DNA from: Squalus acanthias
Lineage: Eukaryota
Reading direction: 5' to 3'
Assembly: GCA_030390025.1 (NCBI GenBank)
Contig: JASTWF010000810.1
Span: 62,001-126,000, forward strand
Length of the DNA stretch: 64,000 nucleotides
Positions 687 through 38,110 of the stretch are shown one piece after another. A model generated the notes under the pieces. It saw only the letters and a program-made list of their open reading frames with translations, was not told the origin of the DNA and searched no databases. The translations under genes were made by a program, and so were the position numbers. Positions within the stretch are counted from its first letter, which is position 1; each line of letters begins with the position of its first letter.

Positions 687-854
687 TTACTTGGCTTTTC
701 CTTCCGTTAAAATAACGTCTGCTCTTTGATTTTTCATCTGTAGCTGAGCATACTCCGTGCTCTTATCCTTAAAATTAGGGTTTGCTGTTTTCTTCGAGCC
801 TGTCATGTCGAGAGCAGCGTAGGTCAACTTATTATCAGGCCCCCTTTGCTTGGT
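687..854 (-). CDS. Exon 7, terminal cytoplasmic exon [55 protein letters not shown]
   Basis: Acceptor tttcacag, ITIM LTYAAL and ITSM-like TEYAQL, stop TAA. Confidence 0.88.
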   Translation of the reverse strand, partial: TKQRGPDNKLTYAALDMTGSKKTANPNFKDKSTEYAQLQMKNQRADVILTEGKAK

Positions 855-3800
855 CTGTGAAATCAATATTTGGAAATATCATTACTTCGACATTGTACTT
901 GTTTATAGTCTAATATTTAGCAATTTCATTGGAATAGCTGGATCCTCGCAGAAATAGCGAGGATATAAATGATGAATTAAATATAAAAGATTACCATAGT
1001 ACTATTCAAGGTCTTTCTTACACTATCCTGCATGCCCATTAATTACAGTTAATCTTTGTCTCTTTGTTCTGCTCCCCAGCCCTACCTGGGCATACACTGT
1101 CCTCTCTTGATGCTTTGGTCTTGGACCTTTCCGGGACTTGGTCAGATCTAATGTGGCATAAGGCGTCATCACTTCGGCTGGTCCCTGCATGGGAGGAAGG
1201 GCAAAACTATATTTTGTTATGGTGTTAGGGCAGATACCGCGGTTCGGCGCTCCCTGCACAGAACGATGCGAGCAGGCCCTAAAACCGCAGATTCAGAGTC
1301 CATCCATTAAATGGATGGATGAAATATCAGTCACTGCTGCCAGAACCTTCTTGTCTGTGCTCCGTGTCCGCGCCGTCAGTGCCCAGCAGGCGGAATCAGT
1401 CGCATTATCACAAATATTCGAACAGTTTGGGGGAGGGTGAAAGAAGGTTTCTTCTTTACCGCCTGGACCTGAAGCATCGTCAGGGCTGCGCATGGATTGG
1501 AATATCTTGCGGAGCCGCTGCTGGCAACAGACCCCGCGCATTTTCCTAAAATTGAATCGAATGCAAAGAAATTCCCTCGGGACGAGCGATCCTCTCCACT
1601 AGATCTCCCTTTCTGCGCTCCGCCCATGCATTGCTTAACGCCCAGACGGTAAAGACGAAAATCTACCTCCAAAAATGCGCGGTGCTACAACCGGTCTCCT
1701 GATCTCACTTTGCTGGGTGACCACTAGAAGCCCCATAGAATCTGTGTAATAGGCTGAAAGTGCCCTTTAGGTTGTGTGTCTGGGAATTCCACGGGTGTCC
1801 CGCCGAAGTTACGGAAATCCCTAGAAATTTACATTTTAAGAAAGTAAAGAAATATAAGGGATCAAAGTTCATCCCTGAATTCCATTGATAGGAGTAATCT
1901 AGTTGAAATAACCTTCATCTGGCAAGGTTTTCATACTTGAAATTACACTTTCGTTGCAAAAAATATAGTAAAACCATTTAACTCCTTTAGAACATTGAGC
2001 TTTAGGCATAATGGTAAATGTGCATCGTAGTCATACAATGGATGGAATTGAATTAGCACAAGGAGACAGAAAGGGGTCTGGGGTTAATAGCAGTCAGGTC
2101 ACTTTCAATGTCCAGAAAAGTAAACAACGAATAGAATTCTGGAATCAAGGATAAGGACATGGAATACAAGAGATTATATTAAAGCTTGTCATTGAGCTTC
2201 TGGCCTACACATAGAATCTTTTGTTCAGCTTTTAATTCATCCACAATGTCACAATATCTATATATATATCTATATTTATATATTTCTATCTACATCAATG
2301 TCCAGCTGTCTTTCACTCTAAGGTAGACCCTGATGACTCAAGCACGGAGATGAATTAGAACTAGGGATACAAATGGAACACAAATATCGAACAGATATCA
2401 GGAAAAACATATACAATGAAAGAATCAGATTTGCTTGGAATAATTCTCTTGGTGTGCTCGAAATTTCGCGGACGCTTCCCGCGATCGGTAATCACATGCT
2501 GCAGGCGGTATATATTGGAACATCTCAATTAATGCCAACTCGTTTCTGTCCATTGATTTCAATACGTAGGAGATTGCGGGAAAATAACCCTCAATTTTCC
2601 GATAAGCATCTCCGTGCTTGCTTGGTCTCACGGCCTGTGCGGTGAAGCAGCAAATTCCGCCCAAGGAGGTGAAGGTTGGGCGTTGACATTGGAGGTTTTC
2701 CGATTTCAGTTGGATACTATGACGGGAGAATGAGGCGACTGAAGGGAATGCCGATTAATCGTCACCTATCTACTCGTCTTCTTAATATTTCGGCAAATTC
2801 ACCCAAAATTCCATCGCTGTGCTCTGGGCGCACGCGGACACAAGAAATAGCTAAACTGGCACCGTCAGCCTATGACATTGTGCCGGATTTTGTATTAATT
2901 CTCGAGATGTGGGCATCGCTGGCAAGGTCGGCGTTTATTGCCCATCCCTGGTTTCCCTCAGAAGTTGGTGGTGGTGGGATTCAGAGGAGACTGCAGGGGG
3001 AAGTTGAGAGTCAACCACCTTGGTGTGGACTGCAGTCACATACAGTGCAGACCGGGTAAGAATGGCAGGTTTCATTCCCTAACCGAAATCAGTGAACCAG
3101 TTGGGGTTTTAAGACAACCCCACAGCTTCAGATAACATCATTTATTTACAGATTTTGAAAACTGAATTCAAAATCTCAAATTACAATGATAGGATTTGAA
3201 CTCGCGTACTCTGGATTAAGTTCAGAGTTAGTTAATGGGCACAGTATTATGAACTACCGCCAACATACTGTCTGCTGTATCCAGGAGGCAAAAACAGTTT
3301 TAATTATTAATTACGGTTGATGGTAACTTTTAATCAATATGCTTATTCGCCATCAGCAGATGACATTTACAATTCAGCTGCTTTGAACTATTTACGAAGA
3401 TCGTTGCCATAAGTGCTGAATTCAATCTGCGCTATTTTTGTATGAATCTTTAGAGCAATAGATTTTAACGTGACAAATTATTGCTTTAAATAGATTAAAA
3501 CTGTTATGTATATGTTTATATCTGAGATATATTAGAATGAATCATGCACATATACCGGCTGTTCGCGATAGTCGGATCTTTCGCCATCGTTCTGTGCTCC
3601 TGGTAATGAATGAAGTTCAGGACTTTACAATGAGGCATTTACTCAGCCTGGAAATACACTTCGGGTAGATTCAATATAAAGTATAACATGATCTAGATAT
3701 CACATTTTAAGTATTTGTTGTTTTCCGATCTGTTTTTGACAATTGATTTTTCAGATGCGGCTGGGGCCTCGGAAGCTGCGCGATCCTGATTGGAAAATCG

Positions 3801-6800
3801 CGGGGACACTACCCACAATTCTACGTTCATTGACCCGAATGAGCGTAAACTGGCAATCAATGAAAAGTGATTGTCCAAAAAAGATCACGCTAGTCTCTGC
3901 AGATGGCTGGGGTAACTCGGAAAATTCCACCACATTTTAGAAATTCGAATCTACCGCTACACCGGTAGTGATTAAACCCATATTCAATACATCAGGTGCT
4001 GCAATTTGTGTAAATATAGCAGACTGGGGTGACTGTGAAGCGTCCGGTATAGTTTAAACCCCAGGATACAATGTTATGTTCAGCAACCGCCCCTGTTCCT
4101 GTGAGACAGAGTAAAAGCTCTTTGAAACGTTCAGTTGCAATCAACTAACTTTCTCTCTACATTTAAAATGAAGTTCTCGCTCACCCTCTCTTTGAAAACT
4201 GTTTTTACTTTAGTAAAGAATCTAAATTATGTCTTACCTTTATTTTTCTTTGAGACACATTGCTTCCCAATGATGACAGCCAGCACCAGGACTACCAACC
4301 CGCCCCCTGCACTTGCACGAATCAGCAAGTAATGGATGATCTCACCACCTTCAAGATTGAGATGAAATATATCAATATAAAGACCTACACTGTTCAATTC
4401 AATGAGACAATGACTTAAAAATCAGAAACATTAAAATATTTTAAATAATTTTTGCCATTTATTTTTTATATTAAGGTACAATTTTATGAAACAAAATAAA
4501 AATGTTGGTCTTTGTTTAATTTTGCATGCTTAAAGAATAGTTATTTTACTTTATCTTGGCTGAAACTCAACTGTGATTGTATCCTTGTTTCTTCTTGAAA
4601 TAAGACTGCGATATCAGCGGTTAATTCTGACATTGTGCATTACTGTAAAATGGGCGAGAACCAATCGGCAGATTGATTTACATTAATCCCCATTTTTATT
4701 CCCACTGAATTCAGTGCGATCATGTTTAGTTTATTGTTGTATATGACGGCTAAAGACGGCAGTTGCTAAATGTACATCTTGCTGAAGATTACAGATCGAT
4801 TTAAGCAAAGCTGGAGACAGCGGTCTAGCTCCGGCATGTTGCGACTTGGAACCACAGGGTGCGAGTTACTGCGGGATACTGCCCCACACGTCAGTTCCAC
4901 ACCTCGACCGTGACTTCCACTGGGGCAGAAGATGTCTAACAGCAGTTGCAGAGACCATGGAGCACAACACCTGGCAGAACGCCGCGGATAATGGTATCTG
5001 AGTAAAAGTAAACAAATGATGGGGGGATGGATCACAGCAAACCGTTTACTTGCACGATAATTGAGATAGATAAACCAGTTAACTGCAATCTAATGTTAGT
5101 AGTGAGAAAATTACTAGAGATTCTTGGTATTCTGTCTCGGAGAAGCATGATGAATAAGGGACAGCCAACATGTATTTGTTAAATGAAAATGATGTCTGAT
5201 TAACCTGATTGAGATCTTTAATGAACTAACAGAGGTTTGATGAAGGTCGTTGAGAAGATATATGGATTTTAAAAAGTCATTTAATAAAGTAGCTCATAAT
5301 AGACTTATTCGGCAAATAGAGGCGCATAGAATTTTAGGGATGGTGGTACCTTGGGTACTTCATTGGCTATGTGATAGGAGGTAGAGTGTGGTGGTGAAAG
5401 AATGCCTTTTCTGACTGGAGAGAATTATGCAGTGGGTTCTCCCATGGATAGGTCTTAAAACCAATGTTTTATATGATATGCCGAAAGGACCAGGACTTGA
5501 ATACAGGGAATAATATTTTGAAGTTTGCAGATGATGCAAATTTGGCAACGTAGTACATAGTGAAGAGGATAGTAGCAGATTTCAGCAGGACATAGATAGA
5601 GTGGTGAAACGGGCAGACACATGTCAGGATCAATTTAACGCGGGCATGTGAAGTGTGCACATTGGGTGGAACAACATGGAGAGGCAGTATAATCGAAATA
5701 GTTCTATTTTGAGGGGCTTACAGAGGCAGGGGAACTGGGGTGCATATTGACAAATCTTTGAAGGTGGAAGGGTAAGACGATAAGATGATTAATTAAGCAC
5801 ATTGGATGACTGAGTTTGTAAATAGAGGCCGTGAATACAAAAATAAGGAAGTCATGCTAAACTTTACAAATCACTGGCTAGCCCTCAGCTGGAGTACTGT
5901 GTCCAATTCTGTGCACCACAATTTAGGAAGGATGTCAAGTTCTTGAAGAGGGTACGGAGGAGGTATAGCAGGATGATAACAGTGATGAGCGCCAGCAGTT
6001 ATGTAGAGAGATTGGAGAAGCTAGGATTATTCTCACTATAGCATGGAGGATTAAGGGGATACCTAATAGAGAAATTCAAAATTATGAGAGGCTTTGATGG
6101 AGCAAGTAGGGAGAAATTGCTTCCACGGGAAAATGGGTCCGTAACCATCAGTCATAGATTTAAAATTATTGATTAAAAACTAGAGGCGGATTGAGGAGAA
6201 TTATTTTCTCACGAAGTATTGTTCTGATCCAGAACGCATTATCAGAAAGGTTGGTGGAACCAGTTTCCGTCGGAATTTTCAAAAGGCAATTGGACGTGTA
6301 CTGGAAGAGGACTACTTTGCAGAGTTATGGGGAAAAAGTTGGTGTGGGCATTAAATTGGACTGCTCTTTCAAAGAGCCCGCACAGGCACGCCGGGCCTAA
6401 TAATCTCTTTCTCTGCTGTAAGATTCTATGATTCGATCTGAAATATTACCTGTGTTCGTGTTTTGGACAATGTGAGTGGCCGTGGCTGAAATTTCGAGGG
6501 TACTGTGAGACACCAGGCAGGTATAAACGGTCCCGCTTTGGACAGCCTGCGTCTCTTCCAACCGGCTGGAAGCTTCATATAGTCCATCGGTGTTTGGTTG
6601 ATTAGTGTTATTTATCCTTGTTGTAATTTTGGTTCCATCCTTATACCAAGTGAAGCTGATATTCTGCGGGTAAAAGGGAGATGTTGTGCACAGTAGAGTC
6701 AGAGACGCAGCTGAATCCTTTTCGGGTTCCTGAGAGACAATTTTCAGTGGAGTTGGCGGAACTAGAAAAATGGAGGAAAAGAATGTTACATGGACATCAT

Positions 6801-8272
6801 TCAAGGTTACCAACCCATCGTCTTTTTTCCAGCCCATTCCTGACAGCACAATGTGGGCGGGGGGTTGGGGTAGTGGTGGGGGCCTTGTGTTCACTGTGCG
6901 CTATTGGTACCTACATCGTAAACGGCATCTTCATAAATGTCAACGTTATATCGGCGGTAATTTTAACTGCTTTCCCCCGGCGAAAACCGGATTGCAGCGA
7001 ATAGGCCGCCATTTTACTGCTCGACGATTTTCTTTTCTAATGTTAAAGAACATTGAGTGTGGTGTATATCGGGTTGCCGATTCACTGACGCTTGTTTTGC
7101 GGTACATCTGCGGACCAATTCCATCCCGTTGAGCATAACATCTGATGAGGAAGTATAATTTACCCAAGATAGAGGGGCTATGGCACGAAGGTCCGGTGCG
7201 AAACCTTATTTGCTGGAGGCTTCAATGTTGATTAAAATAAGGGGTACGAGGGTCAAGCTACAGAGTGCAGACATTGACCGTTAGCAATTTGGCGTTCAAA
7301 GGTCTTAACATACAGAACATTAAATTATGAATGTGAGAATCTGAGTACAATGTAAACAGTCTGCCCTCCGTAACTAGAGCAGAAAAAAACAGTAACTAGG
7401 GTAAGATCGGTGCTTACAGTGGCGGATACCCGCTCCTATCCATTATACAGACCCTTAACGGACACTGCAATTTTAAACTCAAACGCTTATTGTATACATG
7501 CTTACTGTGTAATTCGGATGAATCCGATAATGCTCGTCTTGATTAATATTGTTGAAATATTTCAATACATAGTAGCATGTAACGTGTAGCAGTCAACAGT
7601 GCAATTTGAATATATACACATAAAACGGCCGGAATTTAAGTTGTTTTTGAATCCTACAAAGCACAATCGTGAATTTCTTCGAAGTGGGAAATATTACAGT
7701 CACATGGATCTCATTTGCCGCTTCTTTTATACTTACCCCAGATAGCTAAATTGGATCCCGTTCCGTTTCCAACTATTTTGCCTCGATGGTCGACAGTGCA
7801 ATAATATACACCCGAGTCCTCGACACTCACATTGATGATCTGAAGGAAGCCGCTGAATTTAGTTTTGGATCCATTTACTTTTCTGTCATCAGGTCCTATG
7901 CTTAGATATTTATTATCACCCTGTTTCCACCAGTATAGGTTCACCCGTGGTCCATCTTGAAAGAAGGGAATCGAGCAATGAAAGGAAACGTTTGTACCCT
8001 TGATTCCGCTCGCGCTTTCAGGGAGCTGAGTCACTTTGAGCGAAGTTTCGCAGGAGCCTATCGGAAAAGAAAATCAAAACCGAATTAATGAGAATATTAC
8101 AGGAGAAGAAGCGCGATGGTAAGTAAGTCAGGCAATGTGTGCAAAGGACAATGAAACAAACAATGTTAAGCAGCTATGCGTTTTAGCGAGAAAGCAAGGT
8201 TTAGAAACAACAGGTACCTGTGAACATGAATCCCAGAACAGAGAGGCACTGAAGTACAGCACTCGCCAACAT
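687..8272 (-). CDS. Multi-exon IgSF immune receptor, leader-V-C1-TM-cytoplasmic ITIM/ITSM tail (NCR3/SIRP-like), 369 aa; exons 8272-8218, 8057-7737, 6761-6450, 4348-4238, 3599-3556, 1184-1086, 854-687
   Basis: All introns are GT..AG with consistent phases (1,1,1,1,0,0). Exon lengths 55+321+312+111+44+99+168=1110 nt give one open frame ending at TAA 689-687. V-set and C1-set motifs, hydrophobic TM and tyrosine motifs are all present. Confidence 0.88.
1086..1184 (-). CDS. Exon 6, cytoplasmic [33 protein letters not shown]
   Basis: Acceptor cccttcctcccatgcag, donor CAG|gtaggg, two Tyr motifs. Confidence 0.88.
2895..3260 (-). mobile_element. SINE-like element sharing its tail with the LINE fragment at 25247
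   Basis: tgggcatcgctggcaagg...tttattgcccatccct is shared with the end of the 25247-26030 element. Confidence 0.55.
3556..3599 (-). CDS. Exon 5, short cytoplasmic exon [15 protein letters not shown]
   Basis: Acceptor ttcattcattaccag, donor CCG|gtatat. Supplies the phase 1 to phase 0 change needed to join exon 4 to exon 6. Confidence 0.7.
4238..4348 (-). CDS. Exon 4, transmembrane exon [37 protein letters not shown]
   Basis: Acceptor cttgaag, donor AAG|gtaaga, phase 1/1. Hydrophobic span followed by basic stop-transfer residues. Confidence 0.88.
5160..6433 (+). mobile_element. Degenerate 5'-truncated CR1 LINE in intron 3 of the receptor
   Basis: KFADDA-like RT remnant, LEYCVQF-coding segment, ttctatgattc tail ending ~16 nt from the C1 exon donor. 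Confidence 0.85.
6450..6761 (-). CDS. Exon 3, C1-set Ig domain
   Basis: Acceptor tttttctag, donor G|gtaata. [21 protein letters not shown]...[10 protein letters not shown]...[10 protein letters not shown] are C1-set signatures (FYP, TW, YxCxVxH). Confidence 0.95.
7737..8057 (-). CDS. Exon 2, V-set Ig domain with germline-encoded J-like G strand
   Basis: Acceptor ttttccgatag, donor G|gtaagt. Translation LKVTQ.PES...VSFHC...LYWWKQ...[16 protein letters not shown]...[11 protein letters not shown] contains Cys, Trp, DSGxYYC and GxGT. Confidence 0.95.
8218..8272 (-). CDS. Exon 1, signal peptide [18 protein letters not shown]
   Basis: agaATG start, hydrophobic core, phase-1 donor ACAG|gtac. A homologous 55-nt leader exon exists in the paralogue at 36237-36291. 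Confidence 0.85.
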
Positions 8273-36236: not shown

Positions 36237-36667
36237 ATGTTTATAGCTGGGGTACTTCAGTCCATATGAGTCTTCGGGATTATGTGCACAGGTATTTTCT
36301 GTTGTTCTATTTCTCTCCCTCCCTCTCCTCTCTTTTTCTCTGTCCATAATTTGCCCGTGCATTCCATTATCATGTTGTATTTATAATTATCGTTGTGTTT
36401 CCTGACAGTTGCTATTGATGCTCAGTTCCGAGTCTCCCAAGCTCCTGAAAGCACGATAGTGCTCGTGGGTTCAAACATTACATTCTATTGCACATTCCCC
36501 ATTTTTCAAGATAACTCAGATGTTAGTGTTTATTGGTGGAAACTTGGCGCAACTTTCTGTATACAGCAGGAAAATATTTCTGCATTTTAAACAAGGAGGA
36601 GCCGCCTTTCATCTCCTGAACATCAGTGCGCCGGACTCTGGGGTCAATTACTGCGGAGTGAGAACAC
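36237..36667 (+). pseudogene. Pseudogene paralogue of the V-C1 receptor (leader exon 36237-36291, V exon from 36409)
   Basis: Leader MFIAGVLQSI*VFGIMCT aligns with the gene-1 leader but carries a TGA. V exon FRVSQAPES...NITFYCTFPIFQD...VYWWK is frameshifted to LLNISAPDSGVNYC and cut by a CR1 tail. Confidence 0.9.
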
Positions 36668-38110
36668 ATAGAAACATAGAAACATAGAATCTAGGAGCAG
36701 GAGTAGGCCATTCGGCCCGTCGAGCCTGCACCACCATTCAATACGATCATGGCTGATCATTCAAATCCAGTACCCTGTCCCTGCTTTAATCCCCACAGTA
36801 CACATACCCCACCCGACCCCCGTAACACCACGTATTTAATTCCCCCTAACATATCCCATCCTATCCCCATAACCCCACATATTTAATCCCCCCCTAACAC
36901 TAAGGGTCAATTTATCATAGCCAAATCAACCTAACCCACACATTTTTGGACACTCGATCCCAAAACCCCTTAATTCCCCATCAGTCTAAAAATAGATCTC
37001 TCCCTTAAATATACTCAACGGGCAGAATTTTCATTGAGCCGTGGAGGCGTGTTTGGAGGCGGGACTGGATTGAAAATAGCTGAATCGGGGGTCCCGACCC
37101 CATCCCGCCCCCAACCCGCCTCCATGCCAGTTTCGCTGGAGGCGGGTACCCGACCTGTGCTGCGACCCGCCTCCCCGAGGCGGGAAGGGGCTTAGTGGCA
37201 ATAAACTTCCTGTTAACAGATAGTTAACAGGCAGTTTTTTGCCTAATCCCTATTTTAATGCCTGAAATGTGGGCTCTCCGACAGGTCCCAACCACGCCGC
37301 TTCAGCGAGGCGGACCGTGGGTCTGCAGGTGTTGGAGCGGTCGATATGTCCGGTGGGCAGGTGAGTGATGGGTGCATGTGTGCAGAGGTAAGTGTGTAAG
37401 ATTAGTGTAAAGTGTGGAAAAAAGTTTTACTTACCTTAACTTCCTCCTGCAGGTGTCAGCCCTTCAGGTCTGGGAGTCAGAAATCTCACCGGCACAGAAA
37501 GCAGAATGGCCGTTGAGCTGTCAAAAGCTGCAGCCTCTGCTTTTTGTTCTGCAGAGATCTCTAAATCAGCCTGAGATGAAGGAATTAACTTAGAGTGCAG
37601 ATTGTCAGTGTTTGACAGCTTCAAAGAGCTGTCAAACGCTGATAATTCATCTGTCAAAAGCTGAAATGTCAATCTGTGACATCACCTGTTGCCGGGTGGC
37701 CCTTAATTGGCCTGCTGAGCTCACTGGGCGGGCTCAACAAGGTCAATCAAGTGAAAATACAGTGGGTTGGCCACAAGTCGATGGAGGCGGGACTACAACC
37801 CAAAAAGTGGGAGACCCGCCTCCATCATGTCCCCAGTTTCAAAATCCAGCCTATGCACTCAGCTTCCACAGTCCTTTGGGGTAGAGAATTCTAAAGATTC
37901 ACAACCCTGTGAGTGAAGAAATTGCCCTTCATCTGAGTCTTAAATGGCCGACCCCTTATCCTGAGACTATGCCCCCTAGTTCTAGGCTCTCCAACCAGGG
38001 GAAACAACCTCTCAACATCTACCCTGTCAATCCACCTCAGAATCTTATATGTTTCAATGAGAGCACCTCTCATTCTTCTGAACTCGAGAGTATAGGCCCA
38101 ATCTACTCAA
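36668..38110 (-). mobile_element. CR1 3' fragment with nested SINE tail (~36800-36950) and Harbinger-type MITE (~37020-37851)
   Basis: (catagaaa)n tail; RGALIETYKIL...FFTHRVVNL remnant; MITE ends gggcagaatttt / aaaatccagcct interrupt collinear CR1 sequence. Confidence 0.8.

What the first reader, a model, noticed from the sequence alone, without database searches (positions are those of the whole stretch)
687..4348. Activating TM arginine and four inhibitory-type tyrosine motifs in one receptor
Seen: the TM starts [11 protein letters not shown], with Arg near the outer face, and also contains small-xxx-small/Gly motifs. The tail carries TPYATL, TVYAQ(T), LTYAAL and TEYAQL. Established: NKp30 has LLLRAG, whose Arg recruits CD3zeta/FcRgamma; SIRP-alpha has two TYADL/EYAS(I/V) pairs that recruit SHP-1/2. 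Paired receptors usually carry one feature or the other, with KIR2DL4 and NKp44 among the few exceptions. Inference: this is a dual-signalling switch receptor.
Basis: partly seen in the sequence, partly recalled or inferred. Interest (0 to 1): 0.8.

Follow-up and report, generated by a model that had tools for sequence, protein, structure and literature searches.

The report
Shark inhibitory receptor with stray arginine
This shark gene encodes a likely immune 'brake' receptor from a large cluster of on/off receptor pairs, and its odd membrane arginine is a one-locus variant sitting one residue away from where the family's predicted 'on' receptors carry theirs, so it is probably not a built-in two-way switch.

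Summary
Observation confirmed: an intact 7-exon, 369-aa V-C1 receptor gene on the minus strand (8272-687) has Arg240 in the outer part of its predicted membrane helix and four tail tyrosines, only one a strict ITIM. The switch reading is weakly supported. The gene belongs to a cluster of over 100 paired receptors on contig C6. In 110 membrane exons surveyed, Arg sits at one column in 43, mostly short-tailed or with decayed tyrosine exons; the window's Arg is one column further out and unique (1 of 110; 0 of 74 proteins from a cross-species search). The collinear 98-99% copy on C6 has Cys there, other close paralogues Ser. One low-depth contig under another species label also carries the Arg codon, so it is probably real. 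Best reading: an inhibitory receptor (likely SHP-recruiting) with an Arg/Cys variant. A working dual allele remains possible (about 0.2). More notable is the cluster: repeated Gly-to-Arg gains at the fixed column with ITIM decay, as in KIR, Ly49 and CHIR. The scan noted this family before on other DNA (e1-9129839, e1-9889589).

The parts
8218..8272 (-). exon 1, signal peptide
   Evidence: 79-83% identity to leaders of annotated homologues; GT donor, phase 1
7737..8057 (-). exon 2, V domain with J-like G strand in one exon
   Evidence: Pfam V-set 1.2e-9; 129 matches in own genome, 124 on C6
6450..6761 (-). exon 3, C1 domain (only one in the gene)
   Evidence: Pfam C1-set 1.8e-16
4238..4348 (-). 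exon 4, membrane segment (predicted residues 236/238-256/257)
4317..4319 (-). Arg240 codon CGT; TGT (Cys) in the collinear C6 copy, TCT (Ser) in close paralogues
   Evidence: tblastn with homologues; found in all six other inhibitory-type paralogues examined
1086..1184 (-). exon 6, first tyrosine unit (Tyr290, Tyr312)
687..854 (-). exon 7, second tyrosine unit (Tyr326 strict ITIM, Tyr349) and stop
   Evidence: identical in protein to the C6 copy, 84-87% to five paralogues

Best explanation
The gene encodes a V-C1 receptor with a four-tyrosine tail that likely works as the inhibitory member of a shark paired-receptor family, and its Arg240 is a single-locus Arg/Cys variant that probably does not recruit an activating adaptor efficiently. 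Inferred mechanism: ligand binding by the V domain clusters the receptor, Src-family kinases phosphorylate the tail tyrosines (Tyr326 and Tyr349 best conserved), and SHP-1/SHP-2 dock through tandem SH2 domains and damp activation. Activation in this family is likely done by separate genes that carry Arg one residue deeper, have lost the tail tyrosines, and would pair with the FcRgamma- or CD3zeta-like adaptors. Shown: gene structure, motif positions, distribution of Arg. Inferred: expression, ligand, phosphorylation, phosphatase and adaptor use.
For: Membrane exon and tail group with Arg-less inhibitory paralogues. Column of Arg240: Arg in 1 of 110 membrane exons of this genome, versus 43 of 110 one column inward; 0 versus 8 of 74 family-type proteins in the cross-species set. 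Nearest long-tailed homologues in Heptranchias, Heterodontus and Mustelus have Ser. The contig is collinear with C6:68.055-68.133 Mb over 76 kb at 97.5-99.1%, and that copy has Cys; contigs of runs X1 and X3 (one sample) that cover base 4319 all lack the Arg base. Close paralogues with V domains 78-89% identical carry the inward Arg, and a tail-exon homologue without its Tyr was seen in four of the five. Among inward-Arg genes with recognisable tyrosine exons 0 of 9 kept an intact first unit, versus 17 of 27 Arg-less genes (rough automatic rule). Order 'charge first, ITIM loss later' is proposed for rat Ly49 (PMC2213150, passages).
Against: Arg240 is inside the predicted helix and is followed by Gly four residues on, as in the short-tailed class. 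One contig of run X6 (another species label, depth 2) matches the Arg codon, so the variant may be old. A shifted Arg marks one bifunctional CHIR lineage (PMC1458963, passage), so an offset of one need not abolish adaptor use. One other gene (L171, C6:73.21 Mb) has Arg at yet another column with an intact tyrosine unit, and L117 and L148 keep an intact last tyrosine exon. Columns come from ungapped anchoring; tails were searched only about 10 kb past C1, so 30 of 39 inward-Arg and 26 of 53 Arg-less regions showed no unit. Window versus C6 copy shows pN 0.012 and pS 0.011, no sign of purifying selection on small numbers.
Confidence: 0.66

Rival explanations
1. Arg240 is a working adaptor-docking residue: this allele is a bifunctional receptor (as KIR2DL4 or CHIR-AB), or the first step of an inhibitory-to-activating conversion, and the Arg/Cys variant toggles signalling.
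For: Arg in the outer helix; adaptors present; Arg codon also in a contig under another species label; CGT to TGT is a common CpG change (established), so Cys could be the derived state; the family converts often: 7 parsimony steps for the inward Arg, four from Gly codons in 88-97% identical sister exons.
Against: All those gains hit the neighbouring column, none this one; no NxxR or C-terminal acidic residue (PMC6557307); not in any of 74 proteins of the cross-species set; the X6 contig is single, shallow and looks mosaic between two paralogues.
Confidence: 0.2
2. Arg240 weakens membrane insertion, making this a low-expression or null allele of an inhibitory receptor.
For: Summed insertion score of the best 19-mer goes from -1.98 (Cys) or -1.01 (Ser) to +0.73 (Arg) on a recalled position-independent scale; many cluster genes are decaying.
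Against: Such a scale overstates the cost near a helix end, where Arg can reach the headgroups (established); frame and splice sites are intact.
Confidence: 0.08
3. The Arg codon is a consensus error in an unplaced duplicate contig.
For: Unplaced 186-kb contig; base 4319 is unsupported in X1 and X3.
Against: X6 matches the codon; several other window-versus-C6 differences match other paralogues, so the contig's variants are largely real; contigs drop rare variants and the runs may be other individuals.
Confidence: 0.06

Closest known systems
SIRPalpha (PTPNS1) and the SIRP paired family
   Same: V then C1 ectodomain, V with J-like strand, tail of two tandem two-tyrosine units (SIRPalpha tail layout recalled); SIRPalpha 2WNG is third of the PDB hits of the family profile, E 3.9e-23; many homologues are auto-named PTPNS1-like or SIRPbeta-like.
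   Different: One C1, not two; activating partners use Arg near the outer face, not a central Lys with DAP12 (recalled for SIRPbeta1); NSFL1C-like and PDYN-like genes, recalled as SIRP neighbours, lie on C11, not C6 (gene identities judged from recall).
Chicken CHIR cluster (CHIR-A, -B, -AB)
   Same: About 100 loci, inhibitory, activating and dual types, block duplication, repeated inhibitory-to-activating change, shifted Arg in one lineage (PMC1458963, passages).
   Different: C2-type LRC domains; bifunctional CHIR are whole lineages (15 loci), whereas Arg240 is confined to one locus.
NKp30 (NCR3) and shark NCR3 family
   Same: Single-exon VJ-type V domain; membrane Arg that pairs with CD3zeta or FcRgamma in NKp30 (PMC6514059, passages).
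   Different: NKp30 has one V, no C1 and no signalling tail; no MHC class I match on C6 among 50. The shark NCR3 paper was not held, so overlap with its subtypes is unchecked.
KIR2DL4, NKp44-1, rat bifunctional Ly49
   Same: Charged membrane residue plus ITIM in one chain (PMC6514059, PMC3210942, PMC2213150, passages).
   Different: Unrelated ectodomains; their charge is a stable lineage feature.
UrIg2 and other non-rearranging VJ-C1 genes (PRARP)
   Same: Best PDB hit of the family profile, E 6.5e-29; unsplit VJ exon followed by C1 (PMC12227049, passages).
   Different: UrIg2 has nine C1 domains; this family has one C1 and over 100 copies with paired signalling ends.

Membership tests
Paired immune receptors, inhibitory member | Close relatives with similar ectodomain and opposite signalling end | tested here: met
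   V domains 78-89% identical in genes with inward Arg and Tyr-less tail exon
Paired immune receptors, inhibitory member | Long tail with conserved ITIM-type motifs | tested here: met
   Tyr326 and Tyr349 motifs kept in paralogues and in other sharks and chimaera
Paired immune receptors, inhibitory member | Recruits SHP-1/SHP-2 and inhibits | not testable with these tools
   needs cell assays
Arg-type FcRgamma/CD3zeta-coupled activating receptors | Arg in the outer part of the membrane helix | tested here: met
   residue 3-5 of the best window
Arg-type FcRgamma/CD3zeta-coupled activating receptors | Arg conserved and in the family's register | tested here: not met
   1 of 110 at this column, 43 of 110 at the next; 0 of 74 in the cross-species set
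Arg-type FcRgamma/CD3zeta-coupled activating receptors | NxxR context and acidic residue at the cytoplasmic end (PMC6557307) | tested here: not met
   window exon has neither; the short-tailed class of this cluster mostly has the acidic residue, some also NxxR
Arg-type FcRgamma/CD3zeta-coupled activating receptors | Physical association with the adaptor | not testable with these tools
   needs co-precipitation
SIRP family | V-C1-C1 ectodomain (recalled) | tested here: not met
   one C1 exon between V and membrane exon
SIRP family | Locus beside NSFL1C and PDYN (recalled) | tested here: not met
   SEP and opioid families match C8, C9 and C11, none on C6
SIRP family | Binds CD47 | not testable with these tools
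   not attempted
NCR3 / NKp30 | Single V domain | tested here: not met
   V plus C1
NCR3 / NKp30 | MHC linkage | tested here: inconclusive
   0 of 50 MHC class I matches on C6, but the best ones are on unplaced contigs
NCR3 / NKp30 | Groups with described shark NCR3 subtypes | not tested
   paper not held
Bifunctional receptors (KIR2DL4, CHIR-AB type) | Charged membrane residue and ITIM in one chain | tested here: met
Bifunctional receptors (KIR2DL4, CHIR-AB type) | Combination stable in a gene lineage | tested here: not met
   collinear copy has Cys, paralogues Ser

The most novel reading that the evidence does not exclude
Arg240/Cys240 is an old, possibly cross-species, one-base polymorphism that switches a shark inhibitory receptor between brake-only and dual signalling: a living first step of the inhibitory-to-activating conversion that this cluster has completed several times at the neighbouring residue.
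Probability: 0.18. Interest if true: 0.68.

Novelty: new member of a known kind. Interest (0 to 1): 0.36.

Why it matters
The single gene is most likely an ordinary inhibitory receptor. The cluster matters more: a cartilaginous-fish family of over 100 non-rearranging V-C1 paired receptors, present from chimaera to rays, in which Arg was gained repeatedly at one membrane position while tyrosine exons decay to different degrees. For KIR the order of these two steps could not be resolved (PMC2213150); here sister genes 88-97% alike make it testable, and the window allele is a natural one-residue-off control for how strict FcRgamma docking geometry is. Nine paper searches found no description of the family, but four key shark papers were not held.

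Tried and rejected
Complex prediction of the window membrane exon with two FcRgamma-like exons: no answer, score 0.06; no evidence either way. RNA: no RNA holder listed, so splicing rests on splice signals and homologues. A second read-laying on other species gave no result, leaving the spread of the Arg codon open. AlphaFold model of homologue P0005 (pLDDT 61, helix 233-265) does not fix membrane borders; its fold search gave antibody and TCR chains only in the rows shown. PDB sequence search with the membrane exon: 0 hits. A candidate exon at 4099 was rejected as the linker: homologues match 3599-3556 instead. Automatic linker-exon search worked for few distant genes. Paper search for charge-relocation experiments in FcalphaRI: 0 papers; a recalled result was not used. 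Papers not held. Look-up of earlier findings by sequence: nothing. No supplements were opened.
Full report
Observation. Annotated homologues from Heptranchias and Mobula have the same junctions. All 16 hits of the V-domain search are from cartilaginous fishes, so the source is inferred to be a shark or relative. Arg240 is residue 3-5 of the best hydrophobic window. By recalled consensus one motif is a strict ITIM, two are TxYxxL, and one ends in Thr; the Thr of the first motif is private (Val in the C6 copy, Ala in most paralogues).

Setting. The window lies on unplaced contig C3675. Its V exon has 129 matches in the genome, 124 on C6 between 57 and 77 Mb (a lower bound). C3675 is collinear with C6:68.055-68.133 Mb over 76 kb at 97.5-99.1% identity, then departs: an uncollapsed allele or a very young duplicate, which I cannot tell apart. 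The two coding sequences differ at 13 of 1110 bases, 9 changed and 3 silent codons.

Is the Arg conserved? No. The C6 copy has TGT (Cys) and the other close paralogues have Ser; none of the 12 other exons found by the membrane-exon search has Arg there. For a wider count I fetched 10 kb behind 114 C1 matches on C6, dropped 16 regions without a credible membrane exon, one duplicate and one incomplete exon, and added 13 close paralogues and the window: 110 exons. Anchored without gaps on positions that exclude the Arg columns, Arg stands 26 codons before the exon's donor in 43, at 25 in 4 (one subfamily) and at 27 in 1, the window. Other scattered Arg or Lys occur at columns 20, 23, 24 (one each), 29 (nine) and 30 (two). 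Among 116 proteins of at most 520 residues passed the membrane filter: Arg at column 27 in 0, at 26 in 8, at 25 in 2 (the filter missed P0001, P0007 and P0016, read by eye as Ser at 27, the last two with Arg at 26; most hits are unnamed, and the seven family-type ones looked up were cartilaginous fishes).

Is it real? Contigs of runs X1 and X3 (one sample) that cover base 4319 all lack the Arg base (7 and 3 contigs); X5 does not cover it; one contig of X6, a different species label, depth 2, matches the Arg codon. That contig carries the ten variants of paralogue C6:75.50 on one side and matches the window on the other, so it may be a chimera of two paralogues; either way the codon occurs outside this assembly. 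I judge the Arg probably real and variable.

What the column-26 Arg goes with. About 18 of the 43 stop inside the membrane exon, most with an acidic residue at the cytoplasmic edge (by eye), a feature described for FcRgamma-coupled receptors (PMC6557307, passages). Five close paralogues have it, and four of them show a homologue of the first tyrosine exon without its Tyr. On a tree of membrane exons built without columns 25-27 it takes 7 steps, and four gains are one-base changes from Gly codons in sisters 88-97% alike (short alignment, midpoint root). In the 96 C1-anchored regions, 0 of 9 column-26 genes with recognisable tyrosine exons had an intact first unit, versus 17 of 27 Arg-less genes; no unit was seen in 30 and 26 further regions (the rule is rough and undercounts intact units, and genes are not independent). 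By eye the lesions are stops, lost acceptors, deletions and charged residues at the -2 position. Against a clean rule: L117 and L148 keep an intact last tyrosine exon, L106 may keep one motif, and L171 has Arg at column 25 with intact units.

Mechanism. The membrane exon, linker and tail of the window gene are those of the inhibitory lineage, conserved from chimaera to sharks with Ser, Ala or similar at residue 240. I infer SHP-1/SHP-2 recruitment on phosphorylation, as established for ITIM receptors. Activation is likely the job of the column-26 genes, through the CD3zeta-like (C5) or FcRgamma-like (C1222) chains whose acidic membrane exons are in this genome. One residue shifts a side chain about 100 degrees round a helix and slightly outward (geometry); that every repeated gain chose column 26 suggests the position matters (inference). 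A shifted Arg in bifunctional CHIR2C (PMC1458963) keeps the dual reading alive at about 0.2.

Comparison with known systems. It works like SIRPalpha in layout and like KIR, Ly49 and CHIR in evolution (PMC2213150, PMC1458963, PMC3210942; passages seen). It fails SIRP membership on domain number and locus and NKp30 membership on domain number; MHC linkage is unresolved. The family profile's best PDB hits are UrIg2, an IgA model and SIRPalpha. Papers seen: PMC12227049 (abstract, outline, passages), PMC10751288, PMC2213150, PMC1458963, PMC6514059, PMC6557307, PMC3210942 (passages), PMC10450919 (one reference). Searches listed no paper describing this family; the shark NCR3 paper and three related ones were not held, so novelty of the family is not established. 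Earlier scan notes describe activating and inhibitory members on other DNA.

Verdict. Observation confirmed; switch-receptor reading partly supported at best. New member of a known kind, interest 0.36, carried mostly by the cluster and by the testable Arg/Cys pair.

Noticed in passing
window 62741-57666 (-): Intronless 1692-codon MROH/maestro HEAT-repeat open frame with four full-length 99-100% copies at C6 67.1-68.3 Mb, one on C169, and many 85-96% pieces on other contigs: a recently amplified retrocopy inside the receptor cluster.
   Followed up: partly
window 36240-36700 (+): Leader and frameshifted V exon of another family member, head to head with the studied gene; no C1 or membrane exon found behind it in the window. 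On C6 this class, the studied class and a third class recur as a three-gene block.
   Followed up: partly
L171, G000:C6:73.206-73.216 Mb: Gene with Arg at column 25 and two tyrosine exons with in-frame acceptors; sisters have Cys there. A second dual-type candidate with an Arg/Cys contrast.
   Followed up: partly
L117, L139, L148, G000:C6:72.79-72.90 Mb: Three sisters with Gly-to-Arg at column 26 share a stop at the second tyrosine; two keep an intact last tyrosine exon that skipping could restore to the message.
   Followed up: partly
L098, L101, L104, L106, L108, L114, L121, G000:C6:62.0-62.7 Mb: Membrane exons with both Arg at column 26 and Asp at column 22.
   Followed up: no
window 4099 and 1085-855 (-): A strong phase-compatible acceptor 138 bases behind the membrane exon would give a short tail without ITIMs; retention of the last intron would end the second motif in Val and stop 20 codons later. 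No RNA evidence.
   Followed up: partly
window 33104-29538 (-): Long open frame (1189 codons) of a LINE-type endonuclease and reverse transcriptase, with many fragments elsewhere in the window (family judged from recall).
   Followed up: no
window 17425 onward: Collinearity with C6:68.055 Mb ends here; 49.7-64 kb matches C6:68.27-68.29 and 67.36-67.38 Mb at 97-98%: structural variation or misjoin.
   Followed up: partly
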